A DNA stretch of 5,098 nucleotides. Origin: a virus. Taxonomy: Duplodnaviria > Heunggongvirae > Uroviricota > Caudoviricetes. The first letter of the stretch is position 1, and the number at the start of each line of letters is the position of its first letter. Both the position numbers and the translations under genes were made by a program. The DNA is taken from positions 1 through 5,098 of the IMG/VR virus record IMGVR_UViG_3300029074_000008; one strand, 5' to 3'. The notes under the pieces are model-generated. The model made no database searches and was not told where the DNA came from. It saw only the letters and a list, made by a program, of their open reading frames with translations. Positions 1-5,049 of the stretch are shown one piece after another.

Positions 1-153
1 CGTCACGGCTATGAATTACTGATTCACCCGCACGACCCTGCGACTATCAACTATGATCGCTCGCGCTACGCATTGTTACCTGAAACAGAGAAGGCAAAGA
101 TCGAAAGTTACATTGAATTTGTCATCAACCAGAACGAAAAAAGCAAACAATAA
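1..153 (+). CDS. 3' end of an upstream CDS (C-terminal 50 codons; 5' end lies outside the window); product unknown
   Basis: Frame 1 is the only open + frame from position 1 and ends at TAA 151-153; frames 2 and 3 hit stops within the first 25 nt. It is followed 20 nt later by a canonical intrinsic terminator. Translation ...RHGYELLIHPHDPATINYDRSRYALLPETEKAKIESYIEFVINQNEKSKQ*; I do not recognise the family. Confidence 0.6.
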   Translation, partial: RHGYELLIHPHDPATINYDRSRYALLPETEKAKIESYIEFVINQNEKSKQ

Positions 154-173
154 AATCATATTTTTCAGTAAGT

Positions 174-200
174 AAGCCGCCTCATGGCGGCTTTTTTATT
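174..200 (+). terminator. Rho-independent terminator for the upstream gene
   Basis: Perfect 8-bp stem AAGCCGCC (174-181) / GGCGGCTT (186-193) with 4-nt loop TCAT, running into a T-tract TTTTTT (192-197) then ATT. Seen directly in sequence. Confidence 0.85.
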
Positions 201-209
201 GCCTATGCG

Positions 210-226
210 ATTACCTTATGGGTAAT
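210..226. promoter_or_regulatory. Operator-like palindrome, copy 1 (ATTACC-N5-GGTAAT), just upstream of the -35
   Basis: ATTACC (210-215), spacer TTATG, GGTAAT (221-226): perfect 6-bp inverted arms. The same half-sites recur at 272-288. It could alternatively act as a weak AT-rich hairpin before the T-run 226-232. Confidence 0.5.
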
Positions 227-244
227 TTTTTTAACTCATATCTA

Positions 245-273
245 TTGACATCAAACCAGATACGCATAATTAT
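245..273 (+). promoter_or_regulatory. Sigma70-type promoter (pL-like) driving the downstream + strand operon
   Basis: Perfect -35 consensus TTGACA at 245-250; 17-bp spacer; -10 candidate AATTAT at 268-273 (4/6 match, A2 and T6 present). An alternative -10, CATAAT at 265-270, has only a 14-bp spacer. It lies immediately after a terminator and before the first SD/ATG of the gene string. Confidence 0.55.
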
Positions 274-288
274 TACCTCAACGGTAAC
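272..288. promoter_or_regulatory. Operator-like palindrome, copy 2 (ATTACC-N5-GGTAAC), overlapping the -10/+1 region
   Basis: ATTACC (272-277), spacer TCAAC, GGTAAC (283-288). Same half-sites as copy 1; centres about 62 bp apart, flanking the -35. Confidence 0.5.
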
Positions 289-306
289 AGACCGAGGTAA
301 CAAGTT

Positions 307-456
307 ATGCAGTGGAAAATCATCAACGGTTGGTACTGCGTTACTGCATGCGGATTCATGAGCTGGAAGTTCCGCACCTTACAGGAAGGCATTAAGTGGG
401 CTTTCGTCAGCAAAGAAGCTCGCGATGTAGCCAACGATAACGAGATATGGGAGTAG
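307..456 (+). CDS. Small ORF (49 aa), first ORF after the promoter; hypothetical protein
   Basis: ATG 307 preceded by GAGGT (294-298) at 8-9 nt spacing; stop TAG 454-456. Translation MQWKIINGWYCVTACGFMSWKFRTLQEGIKWAFVSKEARDVANDNEIWE (Trp-rich, 2 Cys). Not in the ORF track (below the length cutoff). The track's antisense ORF 273..464 overlaps it; promoter and SD context favour the + ORF. Confidence 0.4.
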   Translation: MQWKIINGWYCVTACGFMSWKFRTLQEGIKWAFVSKEARDVANDNEIWE

Positions 457-464
457 GTTAGCAA

Positions 465-1499
465 ATGAGTGAATTATCAATCATCGAAATCACACCAGAC
501 ATGGCACCAAGAATTTACGTTGAAAAAGGGCTGGAAAAGTTTCTCGAGCAGATCCGTGAAGGTGTTAATGAAGTGCCTGACATTAGCACAGACAAAGGCA
601 GAAAGCGCATTGCATCTCTGGCTGCGAAGGTTTCAAGAAGTAAAACAGCGGTAGAAAAACCAGGACGTGATTATCTGAAACGCCTGAAAGAACAGCCGAA
701 AGTAGTTGAAGCAGAGTTACGACGCTTCGTAACCGAATGCGATCGGCTTCGTGATGAAGTACGCCGCCCACTCACCGAGTGGGAAAATGCTGAGAAATTA
801 CGCACTGAAGCACTGCAACAACGCCTGACAAATTTGCGAGCACTAGCTGACGTGATCGATCTCTCCGGAAACTACTTGCCATCATCTGATATTCAGGAAC
901 GAATTCAAGAGGCTAAATCAGTAGCACTTGATGAAAGTTGGCAGGAGTACGCAGCAGAAGCTGGAGTAGCCAAGGATTCAACCATCCAGAAACTGGAAGA
1001 ATCACTCGCAGTAGCTCAAAAACGCGAGCGTGAAGCCGCTGAGCTGGAGCGACTTCGCAAAGAAGCGGAGGAAAAAGCGCGCATTGAGCGAGAAGAGAAT
1101 ATCCGCCGGGAAGCTGCTGAACAGGCCAGGCTCGAAGCTGAACAAAAAGCGAAAGCTGAAATTGAGGCTGCGGCACGCCTGGCGGCGGAAGAAAAAGCAC
1201 GTGCAGAAGTAGCAGAACGTCAGCGAATTGAAGCAGAGCAGCGTGCACGACGCGAAAAAGAAGAAGCCGTTGCCGAGGAACGCCGACGCCAAGAGGCGGC
1301 AGAAAAAGCCCGCCTTGACGAACAGAAGCGTATCGCCGACGAAGAAGCGCGCCGAGCTGCAGATAAAGAGCATCGCCGTACCGTTAACCGCAGAGTAATC
1401 GCAGATCTGATAGCCCAAGGCATTCACGAAGAATTCGCGCAGAAAGCAATGTTGGCTATCGCTGGCGGCAAAGTGCAGGACGCGTATATCAAATATTGA
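465..1499 (+). CDS. Phage hypothetical protein (344 aa) with globular N- and C-terminal regions flanking a long ER/K-rich charged alpha-helical/coiled-coil segment
   Basis: Long ORF from the track; ATG 465 with AGGT 455-458 upstream. Residues about 185-300 are almost entirely E/A/R/K/Q (e.g. AEEKARIEREENIRREAAEQARLEAEQKAKAEIEAAARLAAEEKARAE...). Family not recognised with certainty. Confidence 0.85.
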   Translation: MSELSIIEITPDMAPRIYVEKGLEKFLEQIREGVNEVPDISTDKGRKRIASLAAKVSRSKTAVEKPGRDYLKRLKEQPKVVEAELRRFVTECDRLRDEVRRPLTEWENAEKLRTEALQQRLTNLRALADVIDLSGNYLPSSDIQERIQEAKSVALDESWQEYAAEAGVAKDSTIQKLEESLAVAQKREREAAELERLRKEAEEKARIEREENIRREAAEQARLEAEQKAKAEIEAAARLAAEEKARAEVAERQRIEAEQRARREKEEAVAEERRRQEAAEKARLDEQKRIADEEARRAADKEHRRTVNRRVIADLIAQGIHEEFAQKAMLAIAGGKVQDAYIKY

Positions 1500-1506
1500 G
1501 GTGGGT

Positions 1507-1806
1507 ATGAACGTTAATCAGCAGAAAAATCTTCAAAAAATCATGCTGGCATTCGACAAGGACTACCGTCTGTCAGAACAGCTATATGACCGACAAGTTG
1601 AACTGATTGAGAGTATCCGGCTTCATCAACTGGCATCAACTTTCGACGTTGTAACAGTTAAAGGCGTTCGCCAGGAAGTACTGGAGGCCGCTAAAGACAG
1701 CCCTGAGTTCGAAGAACTAATGGATGCCTACCGGCGCGAGGCAATGGCAATTATCGCCCGCTGGGATCTGGCTGATCAGCTTGATGGGCAGAGGGACGCG
1801 GCATGA
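1507..1806 (+). CDS. Small acidic hypothetical protein (99 aa), translationally coupled to the exonuclease gene
   Basis: ATG 1507 preceded by GAGGTGGG (1498-1505), which overlaps the upstream stop TGA 1497-1499; the track's GTG 1501 start is less likely. The stop TGA 1804-1806 overlaps the next start ATG 1803 (ATGA). By my hand count about 19 D/E versus 13 K/R. Confidence 0.8.
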   Translation: MNVNQQKNLQKIMLAFDKDYRLSEQLYDRQVELIESIRLHQLASTFDVVTVKGVRQEVLEAAKDSPEFEELMDAYRREAMAIIARWDLADQLDGQRDAA

Positions 1807-2624
1807 AACCGGGAATTTATTTCGACATCAGCAACGAAGACTACCACGCCGGTGACGGCGTGAGTAAGTCGCAACTGGACATGGTTGCCAAGAATCCGGC
1901 GCTTCTTAAATGGGTTCAGGCAGCACCAGAAGACGAAGAGAAAAAGTCTGCACTGGATATGGGAACCGCATTGCACTGTCTGCTTCTGGAGCCTGGAGAG
2001 TTCGACAAACGCTTCATTGTTTCACAGAAATTCGATCGTCGGACGAAACAAGGTAAAGCTGACGAAGAGGAATTTCTTCGTGATGTGGCGGATATGGGGA
2101 TTACGGTACTTGATGCCGAGCAGTGGCGGAAACTGGAGCTGATGCGTGATAGCGCAATGGCTCACCCGGCGGCACGCTGGATGCTGGAAGCACCTGGTTA
2201 CTGCGAAGCATCAATGTACTGGAACGATGAAGAGACGGGGGAGTTGTGCCGAATTCGTCCAGACAAATGGCTGAACGAGCACAACGTGATCGTCGACGTG
2301 AAAAAGGTTGCAGATATGGACCGTTTTGCACGCCACATCGAGGAATTCCGCTACCACGTGCAGGACGCAATGTACCGCGAAGGCGCAATGAGGGTTACTG
2401 GTCAGCCGCATGGTTTTTTCTTTCTTGCCGTGAGCGAAAGCATTGATTGTGGTCGGTATCCGGTACGCGTGTTCGAGCTGGATGCGCAGGATGTCGATGC
2501 CGGGCACGCTCTGTTCCGCCGGGATCTGAATACCTATCACGAATGCCGCATCAATGATGAATGGGGCGGTGTGGAAATCATTAAACGCCCTGAGTGGGCA
2601 CGCAAACAGGATATGTACATATGA
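1803..2624 (+). CDS. RecE-type (exonuclease VIII C-terminal-like) PD-(D/E)XK exonuclease, stand-alone nuclease domain (273 aa)
   Basis: ORF with SD GAGGGA (1791-1796) before ATG 1803. N-terminus MKPGIYFDISNEDYHAGDGVSKSQL resembles the start of the RecE-like PDDEXK nuclease domain as I remember it. PD...(D/E)XK-like motif in IRPDKWLNEHNVIVDVKKV (about 2255-2310). It sits immediately upstream of an annealing-protein gene. Confidence 0.75.
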   Translation: MKPGIYFDISNEDYHAGDGVSKSQLDMVAKNPALLKWVQAAPEDEEKKSALDMGTALHCLLLEPGEFDKRFIVSQKFDRRTKQGKADEEEFLRDVADMGITVLDAEQWRKLELMRDSAMAHPAARWMLEAPGYCEASMYWNDEETGELCRIRPDKWLNEHNVIVDVKKVADMDRFARHIEEFRYHVQDAMYREGAMRVTGQPHGFFFLAVSESIDCGRYPVRVFELDAQDVDAGHALFRRDLNTYHECRINDEWGGVEIIKRPEWARKQDMYI

Positions 2625-3562
2625 GCAACGACATCGCAAACATCAACGCACCAGTAGACACAGCAATCGCTGGAACTGCTGCAACTATTTTCAGCCCAGA
2701 CGGCTTGAACCAACTGATGAAATTCGCCGAGGTAATGGCGCAAAGCCGCGTAACGGTACCGGCGCACCTCGCCGGGAAACCAGCTGATTGCATGGCCGTG
2801 GCAATGCAGGCTGCGCAGTGGGGAATGAACCCGTTTGCCGTGGCTCAGAAAACCCATGTTGTGAACGGCACGCTAGGTTATGAAGCCCAATTAGTAAACG
2901 CAGTTATCTCAACGATGTCGCCAACAAAAGATCGCATCAACTACGAGTGGTTTGGGCCGTGGGAACGCGTGATCGGTAAGTTTGTTGAGAAAACATCCAA
3001 AAACGGCAATCCATATATCGCACCAGGCTGGACTCTAAAAGACGAAGAAGGCTGCGGTGTTCGCGTATGGGCAACCATGAAGGGCGAGGATCAACCTCGA
3101 GTGCTTGAGTTAATGCTGTCTCAAGCACAGGTAAGAAACTCCACACTTTGGGCCAGTGATCCGAAACAACAACTCGCATACCTTGCGACAAAACGCTGGT
3201 CTCGCCTGCACTGTCCTGACGTAATCATGGGCGTCTACACCCCAGACGAATTACAGGAAACGGCACCGCGCGTTGAGCGAGACATTACTCCGCAAACGAC
3301 AACTGCTGCGGGAATGAACAGTCTGATCAACGCTAAAACAGTGAAAAAGCCTGATGAGCAAACGCGTAAAGCGGATAGCCGTGATCCAGAAGAAATGCTG
3401 ATGGCCTTTACCAGCGCAGCGATGAATTACAGCACTGTCTCCGAACTGGATAAGGCTTACAAATACATTGCACAAAAACTTTCAGATGATGACGAACTGC
3501 TGGCAAAAGCCACCGACGTTTACAGCGTTCGTCGGGAAGAATTAAACGAAACATCTATGTAA
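2621..3562 (+). CDS. RecT/Red-beta-family single-strand annealing protein (313 aa)
   Basis: ATG 2621 overlaps the exonuclease stop (ATGA at 2621-2624); AGGA 2608-2611 upstream. Motif AMQAAQWGMNPFAVAQ (about 2816-2836) parallels lambda Bet ANQYGLNPWTKEIYAF (recalled from memory). Classic exonuclease-then-annealase gene order. The track's GTG 2594 start lacks an SD. Confidence 0.75.
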   Translation: MSNDIANINAPVDTAIAGTAATIFSPDGLNQLMKFAEVMAQSRVTVPAHLAGKPADCMAVAMQAAQWGMNPFAVAQKTHVVNGTLGYEAQLVNAVISTMSPTKDRINYEWFGPWERVIGKFVEKTSKNGNPYIAPGWTLKDEEGCGVRVWATMKGEDQPRVLELMLSQAQVRNSTLWASDPKQQLAYLATKRWSRLHCPDVIMGVYTPDELQETAPRVERDITPQTTTAAGMNSLINAKTVKKPDEQTRKADSRDPEEMLMAFTSAAMNYSTVSELDKAYKYIAQKLSDDDELLAKATDVYSVRREELNETSM

Positions 3563-4269: not shown

Positions 4270-4912
4270 GAAATACACACTAATCTATGCAGATCCACCC
4301 TGGGTATACCGGGACAAAGCCGCAGATGGTAATCGCGGTGCCAGTTTTAAATATCCGGTTATGAGTGTGATGGATATCTGCCGCCTTCCTGTGTGGGATT
4401 TGGCCGATGAAAACTGTCTGTTGGCCATGTGGTGGGTGCCAACACAACCACTCGAAGCGCTAAAAGTTGTTGAAGCCTGGGGATTCCGTCTGATGACCAT
4501 GAAGGGCTTCACGTGGATAAAATGTGGTAGTCGACAACCAGATAAACTGGTTATGGGTATGGGGCACATGACTCGCGCCAATAGTGAAGATTGCCTGTTT
4601 GCGGTAAAGGGAAAGCTACCTACGCGCATTAATGCAGGGATCGTTCAGTCATTTACCGCACCGCGGCTTGAGCATTCAAGAAAACCAGATATCGTTCGTG
4701 AAAAACTTGTGCAATTGTTAGGCGATGTTTCTCGCATTGAACTGTTCGCCCGCCAGACGTCTCATGGCTTCGATGTTTGGGGTAATCAGTGCGAAGACCC
4801 GGCAGTGCAACTACACCCTGGATACGCGTTGGATATTGGCGGATTAACAAATGCATTCAGCAATGCTCCGGTGTCACCAATAGACAACCAGGGGCGGGAG
4901 CGTGCAGCATGA
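4262..4912 (+). CDS. MT-A70-family N6-adenine DNA methyltransferase (216 aa), apparently orphan (no cognate nuclease in window)
   Basis: Motif IYADPPW (DPPW, catalytic motif IV; GAT at 4292-4294) near the N-terminus, and EHSRKPD near the C-terminal third. The ATG 4262 start is preferred over the track's GTG 4250. The stop TGA 4910-4912 overlaps the next ATG 4909. Confidence 0.85.
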
Positions 4913-5049
4913 ACCTATATCAACGCATCAATGGCGCTGACTGGTGCAATATCTTCGTCGTCGGCGATCTGCATGGGTGCTACACGCTGCTGATGAACGA
5001 ACTCGACAAAGTTTCATTCGACCCACTCAATTATTTACGACAAACATAA
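4909..5049 (+). pseudogene. Truncated lambda-type Ser/Thr protein phosphatase (metallophosphoesterase): only the N-terminal 46 codons
   Basis: [39 protein letters not shown] closely parallels the lambda PPase N-terminus (...[25 protein letters not shown]..., recalled) and includes the GDxHG metal-binding motif. Similarity stops after FDP (about 5025) and the frame ends at TAA 5047-5049. No continuation with the expected second motif (roughly ISVGDL-DRG) exists in any + frame of the remaining about 70 nt. Confidence 0.7.

What the first reader, a model, noticed from the sequence alone, without database searches (positions are those of the whole stretch)
154..306. Immunity-region-style boundary: terminator, then a promoter bracketed by two copies of an ATTACC-N5-GGTAA(T/C) palindrome
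Seen in sequence: a strong intrinsic terminator (174-200), then a perfect TTGACA -35 (245-250) flanked by two near-identical 17-bp palindromes (210-226 and 272-288) that share both half-sites. This half-site pairing appears nowhere else in the window by my scan. Inference: these are repressor operators controlling the early operon, the arrangement classically found at lambdoid OL/pL. The motif is not a LexA box and I do not recognise it as a known repressor operator, so the cognate repressor (presumably upstream, outside the window) may be an uncharacterised specificity.
Basis: partly seen in the sequence, partly recalled or inferred. Interest (0 to 1): 0.5.

Follow-up and report, generated by a model that had tools for sequence, protein, structure and literature searches.

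The report
Known phage repressor operators at early promoter
The two palindromes are real and are almost certainly binding sites for the prophage's own repressor at its early-left promoter, but this belongs to the well-studied epsilon15/phiV10/SPC32H phage group, where the same sites are already annotated, so it is ordinary.

Summary
The window is the early-left region of a phiV10/epsilon15-like (Uetakevirus) prophage of E. coli. It is not a lambdoid phage.

The repressor is not outside the window. Window 1-153 is the 3' end of its gene, on the same strand. It is a homologue of SPC32H Rep (PDB 5D50).

The palindrome TTACC-N5-GGTAA recurs at almost every intergenic or promoter region of these phages. 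phiV10 has 14 sites, 12 of them in the 6.5% of the genome that is non-coding. These include the repressor's own divergent promoter region and a second module with the same layout and the same 62-bp spacing.

The epsilon15 RefSeq record already annotates the homologous sites as 'protein_bind: repressor'. Half-sites, -35, -10 and the terminator stem are invariant across relatives from E. coli and three other genera, while the operator's central 5 bp and the terminator loop vary freely.

So the operator reading is supported. The 'lambdoid OL/pL' comparison and the 'uncharacterised specificity' suggestion are not. Binding and the transcription start remain untested for this prophage.

One modestly open point remains. 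The conserved in-phase 62-bp spacing suggests that one Rep tetramer clamps both sites.

The parts
1..153 (+). 3' end (last 50 codons plus stop) of the prophage repressor gene rep. It encodes the C-terminal tetramerisation and antirepressor-binding domain (CAD / 'TetDloop').
   Evidence: The homologous position in phiV10 and in E. coli JML285 is the end of a 194-aa helix-turn-helix protein gene. The full-length homologue matches SPC32H Rep (PDB 5D50_A) with E = 4e-42 over residues 1-190. The domain names come from PMC9986798.
174..200 (+). Intrinsic terminator that ends the rep transcript and insulates the early-left operon from read-through.
   Evidence: 8-pair stem with 6 G-C pairs and a T6 run. 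Folding energy -21.1 kcal/mol, z = -6.1. Annotated as a terminator in phiV10. In 13 relatives the stem is invariant and the loop is variable.
210..226 (.). Distal operator ATTACC-TTATG-GGTAAT, centred at about -62 from the predicted start.
   Evidence: It is homologous to the epsilon15 'protein_bind repressor' site at 32616-32632. The half-sites are invariant and the central 5 bp are hypervariable in 13 aligned relatives.
227..233 (+). Conserved T-tract directly after the distal operator. It may be a UP-element-like or intrinsically bent segment (inference).
   Evidence: Conserved as TTtTtT in 11 distinct sequences from several genera. Its function was not tested.
245..250 (+). -35 hexamer TTGACA of the early-left promoter, within the conserved block CTATTGAC.
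   Evidence: The same promoter is predicted at the homologous place in JML285 and in SPC32H.
268..273 (+). -10 hexamer AATTAT (GATTAT in the Salmonella-type relatives) with a 17-nt spacer. Its last two bases are shared with the proximal operator.
272..288 (.). Proximal operator ATTACC-TCAAC-GGTAAC. It overlaps the end of the -10 and the predicted start site at about 280.
   Evidence: It is homologous to the epsilon15 'protein_bind repressor' site at 32554-32570. It is conserved in all relatives examined.
294..301 (+). Shine-Dalgarno GAGG fused to an orphan GGTAAC half-site. This is probably a remnant of the third operator that Salmonella, Citrobacter and Scandinavium relatives keep just upstream of this gene (a near-match in Klebsiella).
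   Evidence: Sequence. The third site ATTACCAAAATGGTAAT directly precedes the SD in epsilon15 and SPC32H and is found at the same place in Citrobacter and Scandinavium; Klebsiella has tttaccaaatggtaat there. The remnant reading is inference.
307..456 (+). First gene of the early-left operon, 49 aa, homologue of epsilon15 gp37. Function unknown.
   Evidence: ORF. phrog_898 match with E = 5e-38. Annotated homologues exist in phiV10 and epsilon15.

Best explanation
Window 154-306 is the regulatory boundary between the repressor gene (rep) and the early-left (recombination, excision, methylase) operon of a phiV10/epsilon15-like prophage.

Proposed mechanism:
- The rep transcript, which starts in the divergent rep/cro-like region upstream of the window, stops at the intrinsic terminator at 174-200.
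- A strong sigma-70 promoter follows (TTGACA, 17 nt, AATTAT; start near 280).
- The promoter is bracketed by two 17-bp palindromes whose half-sites lie one helical turn apart. The helix-turn-helix N-terminal domains of Rep bind these as a symmetric pair.
- The proximal site overlaps the -10 and the start site and blocks RNA polymerase. The distal site at about -62 lies on the same DNA face (62 bp is about 5.9 turns).
- Rep is a tetramer, so the distal site probably helps by cooperative binding or by a small loop that encloses the -35 region.
- In the lysogen this keeps the early-left genes silent.
- Induction is expected to work through a LexA-controlled antirepressor (Ant) that dismantles the Rep tetramer, not through RecA-stimulated self-cleavage.

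What is shown: the sequence elements, their conservation and synteny, the phage-wide distribution of the motif, and the homology of Rep and Ant to the solved SPC32H proteins.

What is inferred: physical binding by Rep in this prophage, the start site, cooperativity or looping, and the presence of Ant in this particular prophage.
For: 1. Identity of the element. The window is 96-98% identical to E. coli prophages and to phiV10-type phages. rep ends at window 153.

2. The motif defines a phage-wide regulon.
- phiV10 has 8 perfect TTACC-N5-GGTAA sites against 0.04 expected, and 14 at up to 1 mismatch against 1.2 expected. Twelve of the 14 lie in the 6.5% of the genome that is intergenic.
- In the JML285 locus the last site lies in the short intergenic stretch between the integrase gene and guaA, and there is none in the following 6.4 kb of host DNA.
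- Sites occur in the rep/cro-like divergent region (two at up to 1 mismatch in the E. coli type, plus a weaker third seen by eye; three in epsilon15 and SPC32H), upstream of int, upstream of the ant homologue, and at the late region.

3. A second module with the same anatomy sits between the replication genes and DUF1064/RuvC: terminator, operator, 18 bp, CTATTGA-type -35, 17 nt, a -10 whose last AT starts the proximal operator, and a 62-bp operator spacing.

4. The epsilon15 RefSeq record annotates the homologous sites as protein_bind 'repressor, lysogeny'.

5. Conservation.
- In 13 sequences (nine E. coli-type, plus Enterobacter phages Tyrion and BUCT554, Superficieibacter and Erwinia) the half-sites, -35, -10 and terminator stem are invariant or nearly so. 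The distal operator's central 5 bp and the terminator loop vary freely.
- The operator pair is also present at the syntenic place in Klebsiella, Salmonella, Citrobacter and Scandinavium, with spacing of 61-63 bp.

6. The Rep N-terminal recognition helix NLVNRW is invariant across clades that are only 42-78% identical overall. Distant N-terminal homologues with other recognition helices lack the motif.

7. Rep matches SPC32H Rep (PDB 5D50, E = 4e-42). Rep is reported to bind palindromic sites as a tetramer (PMC9638917) and to carry a p53-like 'TetDloop' tetramerisation domain (PMC9986798).

8. The phiV10 Ant homologue matches PDB 5D50_E with E = 3e-46 and is preceded by a LexA box, TACTGTGTATTTATACAGT.

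9. An identical Rep (phage ZX5 ORF21), when overexpressed, abolished free phage and cut holin and endolysin mRNA by more than 99.9%.
Against: - There is no binding, footprint or transcript-start evidence for this prophage, and none could be read for any relative. The primary SPC32H and epsilon15 papers are not held. The link between Rep and this exact palindrome therefore rests on a database annotation, secondary descriptions and comparative data.
- The divergently encoded Cro-like protein is equally well conserved and could bind the same sites.
- A 62-bp loop is energetically tight. The constant spacing could instead arise because each operator is independently fixed relative to the promoter elements.
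- The -10 matches consensus at only 4 of 6 positions.
- Salmonella-type relatives lack a canonical terminator between rep and the promoter, so the insulation role of the terminator is not universal.
Confidence: 0.85

Rival explanations
1. The palindromes are bound by the small Cro-like protein (76 aa, encoded divergently from rep), either together with Rep, as lambda Cro and CI share operators, or instead of it.
For: The protein falls in PHROG 35, 'transcriptional repressor'. It is 58-84% identical across the same clades, with an invariant stretch GTTSHYIQ-HLT, so its conservation parallels that of the half-sites as well as Rep's does. The palindromes overlap its own predicted promoter.
Against: Sites at the int, ant and late-region promoters fit a maintenance repressor that silences the whole prophage. 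The epsilon15 record assigns them to the repressor. Rep is reported to bind palindromic sites. The 'instead of Rep' version would leave Rep with no operator.
Confidence: 0.3
2. One reading: a lambdoid OL/pL region whose operators are read by a CI-like repressor of novel, uncharacterised specificity encoded outside the window.
For: The functional logic is lambda-like: a repressor-controlled early-left promoter next to the immunity gene, driving recombination and excision genes.
Against: The taxonomy is Uetakevirus. The repressor gene ends inside the window on the same strand. It has no Peptidase_S24 domain. There are two bracketing sites 62 bp apart rather than three tandem ones. The motif is already annotated in epsilon15. 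The repressor family has a solved structure.
Confidence: 0.03
3. The distal palindrome, centred near -62 (the classical class I activator position), is an activating site rather than a repressing one. Only the proximal site represses.
For: Its position is fixed 18 bp upstream of the -35 in both modules and in all but the Klebsiella and Scandinavium relatives. The module-2 promoter is weaker (TTGATT / TTTAAT) and might need help.
Against: The promoter in the window has a consensus -35 and needs no activator. The two sites share the same half-sites, which implies the same protein. No data point to activation.
Confidence: 0.07
4. The palindromes are chance matches, or are sites for a host factor rather than a phage protein.
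For: None beyond the general frequency of short palindromes in AT-rich intergenic DNA.
Against: 0.01 matches are expected by chance in the window. There is a 200-fold excess of perfect sites in phiV10. No site lies in the host genes flanking the prophage; the last one is in the intergenic stretch between int and guaA. The motif travels with rep through hosts of seven genera. The half-sites are conserved while the spacers vary.
Confidence: 0.02

Closest known systems
Repressor-binding sites of Salmonella phage epsilon15, annotated in NC_004775/AY150271: 32616-32632, 32554-32570 and 32479-32494 between gp38 (repressor) and gp37
   Same: The 17-bp palindrome is the same (ATTACC-N5-GGTAAT). So are the synteny (rep, operator, TTGACA, operator, gp37 homologue), the 62-bp spacing and the overlap of the -10 with the proximal operator.
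   Different: The E. coli type has lost the third operator and about 76 bp of leader. It has a canonical intrinsic terminator after rep, which the Salmonella type lacks. Its operator centres are less A/T-rich. Its Rep is only 42% identical.
Rep-Ant immunity switch of Salmonella phage SPC32H (PDB 5D4Z/5D50; Kim and Ryu 2013; Kim et al. 2016)
   Same: Rep is homologous over its full length (E = 4e-42) with the same layout of DNA-binding domain, dimerisation domain and tetramerisation domain. The Ant homologue is nearly identical in phiV10 and sits behind a LexA box. SPC32H carries the same operator pairs.
   Different: The E. coli Rep is a diverged clade. Nothing has been measured for its DNA binding. 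I could not read the primary papers, so which operators were tested in vitro is from memory or secondary sources only.
Lambda OL/pL (and OR) with CI and Cro
   Same: It works in a similar way. A prophage repressor occludes an early promoter that drives recombination and excision genes, the sites are palindromic, the repressor's own promoter region carries the same sites, and repressor multimers probably bind cooperatively.
   Different: It is not a member of this family. There is no S24 autocleavage domain. There are two sites 62 bp apart rather than three tandem sites about 24 bp apart. The promoter is co-directional with the repressor gene and downstream of it, behind a terminator. No N-type antiterminator is recognisable. 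Operators are spread over about 14 places in the genome.
Rco of Bacillus plasmid pLS20, and other tetrameric looping repressors (LacI, GalR)
   Same: Rep shares an N-terminal helix-turn-helix domain and a C-terminal p53-like tetramerisation domain ('TetDloop') with Rco. Two separated operators flank a promoter, which is compatible with a repression loop.
   Different: Looping by Rep is not shown. 62 bp is shorter than the loops described for Rco, LacI or GalR (from my own knowledge). Rep has an extra dimerisation domain and a dedicated antirepressor.

Membership tests
Uetakevirus (epsilon15 / phiV10 / SPC32H) Rep operators | 17-bp palindrome with half-sites (A/T)TTACC ... GGTAA(T/A/C) separated by 5 bp, matching the sites annotated as repressor-binding in epsilon15 | tested here: met
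   Window 210-226 and 272-288. The epsilon15 annotated sites read ATTACC-N5-GGTAAT.
Uetakevirus (epsilon15 / phiV10 / SPC32H) Rep operators | Syntenic position: directly downstream of rep, bracketing the promoter of the gp37-homologue operon | tested here: met
   The order is the same in 14 loci from seven host genera.
Uetakevirus (epsilon15 / phiV10 / SPC32H) Rep operators | Cognate repressor homologous to SPC32H Rep (N-terminal DNA-binding domain, middle dimerisation domain, C-terminal tetramerisation domain) | tested here: met
   PDB 5D50_A, E = 4e-42 over residues 1-190 for the JML285/phiV10 protein. Window 1-153 encodes its C-terminus. The recognition helix is invariant.
Uetakevirus (epsilon15 / phiV10 / SPC32H) Rep operators | The same motif is repeated at the repressor's own promoter and at other promoters of the phage | tested here: met
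Uetakevirus (epsilon15 / phiV10 / SPC32H) Rep operators | Antirepressor Ant under LexA control in the same phage | tested here: inconclusive
   Met in phiV10, whose Rep is 100% identical to that of the closest relative of the window. The window's own prophage could not be examined outside its 5098 bases.
Uetakevirus (epsilon15 / phiV10 / SPC32H) Rep operators | Physical, sequence-specific binding of Rep to the palindromes | not testable with these tools
   Requires EMSA or footprinting. The only support here is secondary literature stating that Rep binds palindromic sites as a tetramer.
Lambdoid OL/pL | CI-type repressor with a C-terminal S24 (LexA-like) autocleavage domain | tested here: not met
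   Pfam finds only helix-turn-helix families in Rep.
Lambdoid OL/pL | Three tandem operators overlapping the promoter, with the promoter reading away from the repressor gene on the opposite strand | tested here: not met
   Two sites 62 bp apart. The promoter is on the same strand as rep and downstream of it, behind a terminator.
Lambdoid OL/pL | Lambdoid genome context (N/Q antitermination, lambda-like gene order) | tested here: not met
   The records are classified as Uetakevirus, with podovirus structural genes. The first gene after the promoter is a 49-aa protein of unknown function.
LexA (SOS) box | CTGT-N8-ACAG | tested here: not met
   Absent from 154-306. A true LexA box occurs elsewhere in the phage type, upstream of ant.
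Intrinsic (rho-independent) terminator | G+C-rich hairpin followed directly by a U-run | tested here: met
   The stem is conserved and the loop varies. Termination itself was not measured.
Sigma-70 promoter | -35 and -10 hexamers with a 16-18 nt spacer, and a mapped start site | tested here: inconclusive
   The hexamers and spacer are met and conserved. The start site cannot be tested here.

The most novel reading that the evidence does not exclude
One Rep tetramer clamps both palindromes of a pair. Its DNA-binding domains are reported to pair 'in trans' between dimers. This would wrap a 62-bp micro-loop around the -35/UP region of the promoter.

The fixed cassette (terminator, operator, 18 bp, -35, 17 nt, -10 overlapping the second operator) is used twice per genome. 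It is held to within 1 bp across relatives from seven host genera, even though Rep has diverged to 42% identity.

A corollary follows. Because the half-sites, the recognition helix and Ant are all conserved, the whole genus may form one immunity group, with cross-repression and cross-induction between E. coli, Salmonella and Klebsiella phages. That would be unlike the many immunity types of lambdoid phages.
Probability: 0.3. Interest if true: 0.45.

Novelty: already known. Interest (0 to 1): 0.15.

Why it matters
This adds little that is new. It places an unannotated intergenic region, present in about 10% of complete E. coli genomes (557 of 5426), into a known regulatory scheme. It also corrects the idea that an unknown repressor is involved.

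It has some practical value. The E. coli records annotate nothing in this region, and the epsilon15 record annotates only 7 of about 15 sites, so operator maps for phiV10-type prophages could be completed by homology. Some of these prophages sit in O157 and other pathogenic strains.

The only point of wider interest is the strictly conserved in-phase 62-bp operator pair, found twice per genome. It gives a concrete and easily tested prediction for how the structurally unusual Rep tetramer represses. A 2023 paper says this mechanism 'has not been extensively characterized'.

Tried and rejected
- Primary papers. I tried by PMC id, PubMed id and DOI to read Kropinski 2007 (epsilon15), Perry 2009 (phiV10), Kim and Ryu 2013 and Kim et al. 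2016 (SPC32H). None is held. Whether these exact palindromes were tested in vitro therefore rests on secondary sources and my memory.
- Full-text searches for operator descriptions in this genus found only the ZX5 paper, which predicts promoters but names no operator.
- An Rfam scan of the whole window found nothing, so there is no known RNA element to rival the DNA-site reading.
- A LexA box and chance occurrence were considered and rejected.
- A host transcription factor was considered and rejected, because the motif travels with rep across host genera and no site lies in the host genes flanking the prophage.
- I tried to separate Rep from the Cro-like protein by conservation. Both are conserved, so this test does not discriminate.
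- Distant homologues of the Rep N-terminal domain (Paraburkholderia, Hydrogenovibrio, Thiomicrospira) were examined for covariation between operator and recognition helix. They have different recognition helices and no TTACC-N5-GGTAA. No recurring alternative palindrome stood out, so they serve only as a negative control.
- The consensus scan does not score the module-2 promoter in the E. coli locus, because its -10 (TTTAAT) lacks A at position 2. I identified it by eye and by alignment with the SPC32H hit.

Full report
**Observation**

- ATTACCTTATGGGTAAT lies at 210-226 and ATTACCTCAACGGTAAC at 272-288.
- TTGACA lies at 245-250.
- The hairpin is at 174-193 and is followed by T6.
- The consensus scan finds exactly one sigma-70-like promoter in the 5098-bp window: TTGACA, 17 nt, AATTAT (245-273). 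It also lists the 174-193 hairpin as a terminator.
- The extended hairpin folds at -21.1 kcal/mol, z = -6.1 against shuffles.
- ATTACC-N5-GGTAA at up to 1 mismatch occurs only at these two places, against 0.01 expected.
- The palindromes are 62 bp apart centre to centre. The proximal one shares its first two bases with the end of the -10, so it is centred on the predicted start site near 280. The distal one is centred near -62.

**What the region is**

The window is 96-98% identical to prophages in E. coli chromosomes and to phiV10-type phages. These are temperate podoviruses of the genus Uetakevirus, the epsilon15 group. They are not lambdoid phages.

In phiV10 and in the closest E. coli relative (strain JML285), window 1-153 is the end of a 194-aa helix-turn-helix protein gene annotated as the putative repressor. 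It lies on the same strand as the operon that follows. So the repressor gene is not outside the window: its last 50 codons are in it.

The order of features is:
1. rep
2. the terminator
3. the distal palindrome
4. the promoter
5. the proximal palindrome
6. a 49-aa gene (homologue of epsilon15 gp37; phrog_898)
7. recombination (RecE-like, RecT), AlpA/Xis-like, PerC-like and methyltransferase genes

Both checks are positive.

In the JML285 prophage the motif occurs:
- two to three times in the divergent region between rep and a 76-aa Cro-like gene (two at up to 1 mismatch, plus a weaker third seen by eye);
- once next to the terminator after that gene;
- twice between the replication genes and DUF1064;
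- upstream of int;
- near the start of the small terminase gene.

In the complete phiV10 genome there are 8 perfect TTACC-N5-GGTAA sites (0.04 expected) and 14 at up to 1 mismatch (1.2 expected). Twelve of the 14 lie in the 6.5% of the genome that is intergenic. In the JML285 locus the last site lies between int and guaA, and the 6.4 kb of host DNA beyond it has none.

**A second module**

The pair between the replication genes and DUF1064/RuvC has the same anatomy as the pair in the window. It reads: intrinsic terminator, about 10 bp, operator, 18 bp, CTATTGA-type -35, 17 nt, and a -10 whose final AT begins the second operator. The operator spacing is again 62 bp. This holds in every relative examined. 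The cassette is therefore a reused design, not a one-off.

**Already annotated**

The epsilon15 RefSeq record carries seven 'protein_bind, repressor, lysogeny' features. Three of them lie between the repressor gene gp38 and gp37. The two at 32616-32632 and 32554-32570 are 62 bp apart and flank a TTGACA. They are the homologues of window 210-226 and 272-288. The motif there is ATTACC-N5-GGTAAT. The operator interpretation was thus made for this phage group long ago, at least as a prediction.

**The repressor is characterised**

The full-length Rep of the E. coli type matches the Rep of Salmonella phage SPC32H (PDB 5D50) with E = 4e-42 over residues 1-190.
- Secondary sources state that SPC32H Rep binds palindromic DNA as a tetramer, that the DNA-binding domains pair across dimers, and that the tetrameric antirepressor Ant disassembles it (PMC9638917).
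- Rep has an N-terminal DNA-binding domain, a middle dimerisation domain and a C-terminal p53-like tetramerisation domain (PMC9986798). The window encodes that last domain.
- Pfam finds no S24 peptidase domain.
- phiV10 encodes a protein nearly identical to SPC32H Ant (PDB 5D50_E, E = 3e-46). It is preceded by a textbook LexA box, TACTGTGTATTTATACAGT, and by one Rep-type palindrome.
- In phage ZX5, whose Rep is 100% identical by tblastn, overexpressing Rep abolished free phage and reduced holin and endolysin mRNA by more than 99.9% (PMC9782041).

**Comparative evidence for function**

- Rep proteins from E. coli, Enterobacter, Klebsiella and Salmonella phages are 42-78% identical, but the N-terminal helix NLVNRW is invariant.
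- The operator pair is present at the syntenic place in all of them. It is also present in prophages of Superficieibacter, Erwinia dacicola, Citrobacter and Scandinavium. Spacing is 62 bp, except 63 bp in Klebsiella and 61 bp in Scandinavium.
- In an alignment of 13 sequences, the half-sites, the CTATTGAC block, the -10 and the terminator stem are invariant or nearly so. The five central bases of the distal operator and the terminator loop differ in almost every sequence. This is the pattern expected of a protein-contacted palindrome and a structural hairpin.
- Distant homologues of the N-terminal domain that have other recognition helices carry no such motif.
- Rfam finds no RNA family in the window.

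**Mechanism**

The best-supported reading has four steps.
1. Rep transcription ends at the terminator.
2. Rep bound at the proximal operator occludes the -10 and the start site of the early-left promoter.
3. The distal operator, about 5.9 helical turns away and therefore on the same face, increases occupancy through the tetramer, by cooperativity or by a small loop.
4. SOS induction removes LexA from ant, and Ant releases Rep.

Binding, the start site, looping and the presence of ant in this very prophage are inferred, not shown.

The main non-exclusive rival is that the Cro-like protein also uses these sites. It is as well conserved as Rep, so sequence data cannot separate the two.

**Differences from lambda**

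The logic resembles OL/pL, but membership fails on every defining feature tested:
- taxonomy;
- repressor type;
- number and spacing of operators;
- orientation relative to the repressor gene.

**Verdict**

The element is an unannotated orthologue of an annotated feature, and it is present in 557 of 5426 complete E. coli genomes. Interest is low. The one open point worth an experiment is whether the strictly conserved 62-bp in-phase pair is clamped by a single Rep tetramer.

Noticed in passing
window 465-1499: A 344-aa, highly charged coiled-coil protein gene (phrog_1376, function unknown) sits between the gp37 and gp36 homologues. phiV10 and most relatives lack it: phage matches cover about 76% of the window in two pieces, and only 28 of 647 matching E. 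coli records cover at least 80% of it. It looks like a mosaic insertion in the early-left operon.
   Followed up: partly
window 4909-5049 (and the end of similarity near 4914-5024): After the MT-A70 methyltransferase gene, an ORF begins with a lambda-phosphatase-like N-terminus (VVGDLHGCY) but stops after about 46 codons. JML285 and phiV10 have a DUF1382 gene here instead, while Enterobacter phage Tyrion matches through to 5098. This is probably a truncated metallophosphatase remnant at a mosaic junction.
   Followed up: no
window 296-301; L004 (SPC32H) 3293-3309; L003 (epsilon15) 32479-32494: Salmonella, Citrobacter and Scandinavium relatives carry a third operator directly in front of the Shine-Dalgarno sequence of the first gene, plus about 76 bp of extra leader (Klebsiella has a near-match there). 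The E. coli and Enterobacter type keeps only an orphan GGTAAC half-site fused to GAGG.
   Followed up: partly
L004 (SPC32H) 3097-3155; L003 (epsilon15) 32633-32690: The Salmonella-type phages have no canonical intrinsic terminator between rep and the early-left promoter, only an imperfect hairpin without a T-run. The E. coli and Enterobacter type has a strong one. How rep read-through is stopped in the Salmonella type is unclear.
   Followed up: partly
L002 5105-5183 (outside the window; phiV10 record 35069-35147): There is a second terminator-operator-promoter-operator cassette with the same 62-bp spacing between the replication genes and DUF1064/RuvC. Its proximal operator ends 2 nt before the ATG, so the half-site GGTAA doubles as the ribosome-binding site. 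The epsilon15 record annotates only one of its two operators and none of the three in the rep/gp39 divergent region.
   Followed up: partly
L008 (phiV10) 20820-20895: A perfect LexA box (TACTGTGTATTTATACAGT) and one Rep-type palindrome lie upstream of the homologue of SPC32H Ant. Ant is highly conserved between the E. coli and Salmonella phages (E = 3e-46, most aligned residues identical) although their Rep proteins are only 42% identical.
   Followed up: partly
L002 6424-6467: Two tandem copies of TGGGATCATTCAACATCCCGTTTTTGGG lie inside the DnaT-like replication initiation gene. They may be origin iterons, as in the lambda O gene.
   Followed up: no
L008 (phiV10) 87-119; L003 (epsilon15) 12-44: Two adjacent Rep-type palindromes lie at the very start of the small-terminase gene region. 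They are upstream of the annotated start in epsilon15 but inside the annotated coding sequence in phiV10 and JML285. This suggests the E. coli start codon is called too far upstream, or that the packaging operon has its own repressor-controlled entry point.
   Followed up: no
L013 (Scandinavium) 3180-3196: This relative has an extra palindrome (ATAACCATTTTGGTAAT) inside the promoter spacer between the -35 and the -10, giving three operators across the promoter and a 61-bp outer spacing.
   Followed up: no
window 1803-2624 and 2594-3562: The RecE-like nuclease and RecT genes are separate here and overlap slightly. The phiV10 record annotates them as a single 1761-nt RecE-RecT fusion gene.
   Followed up: no
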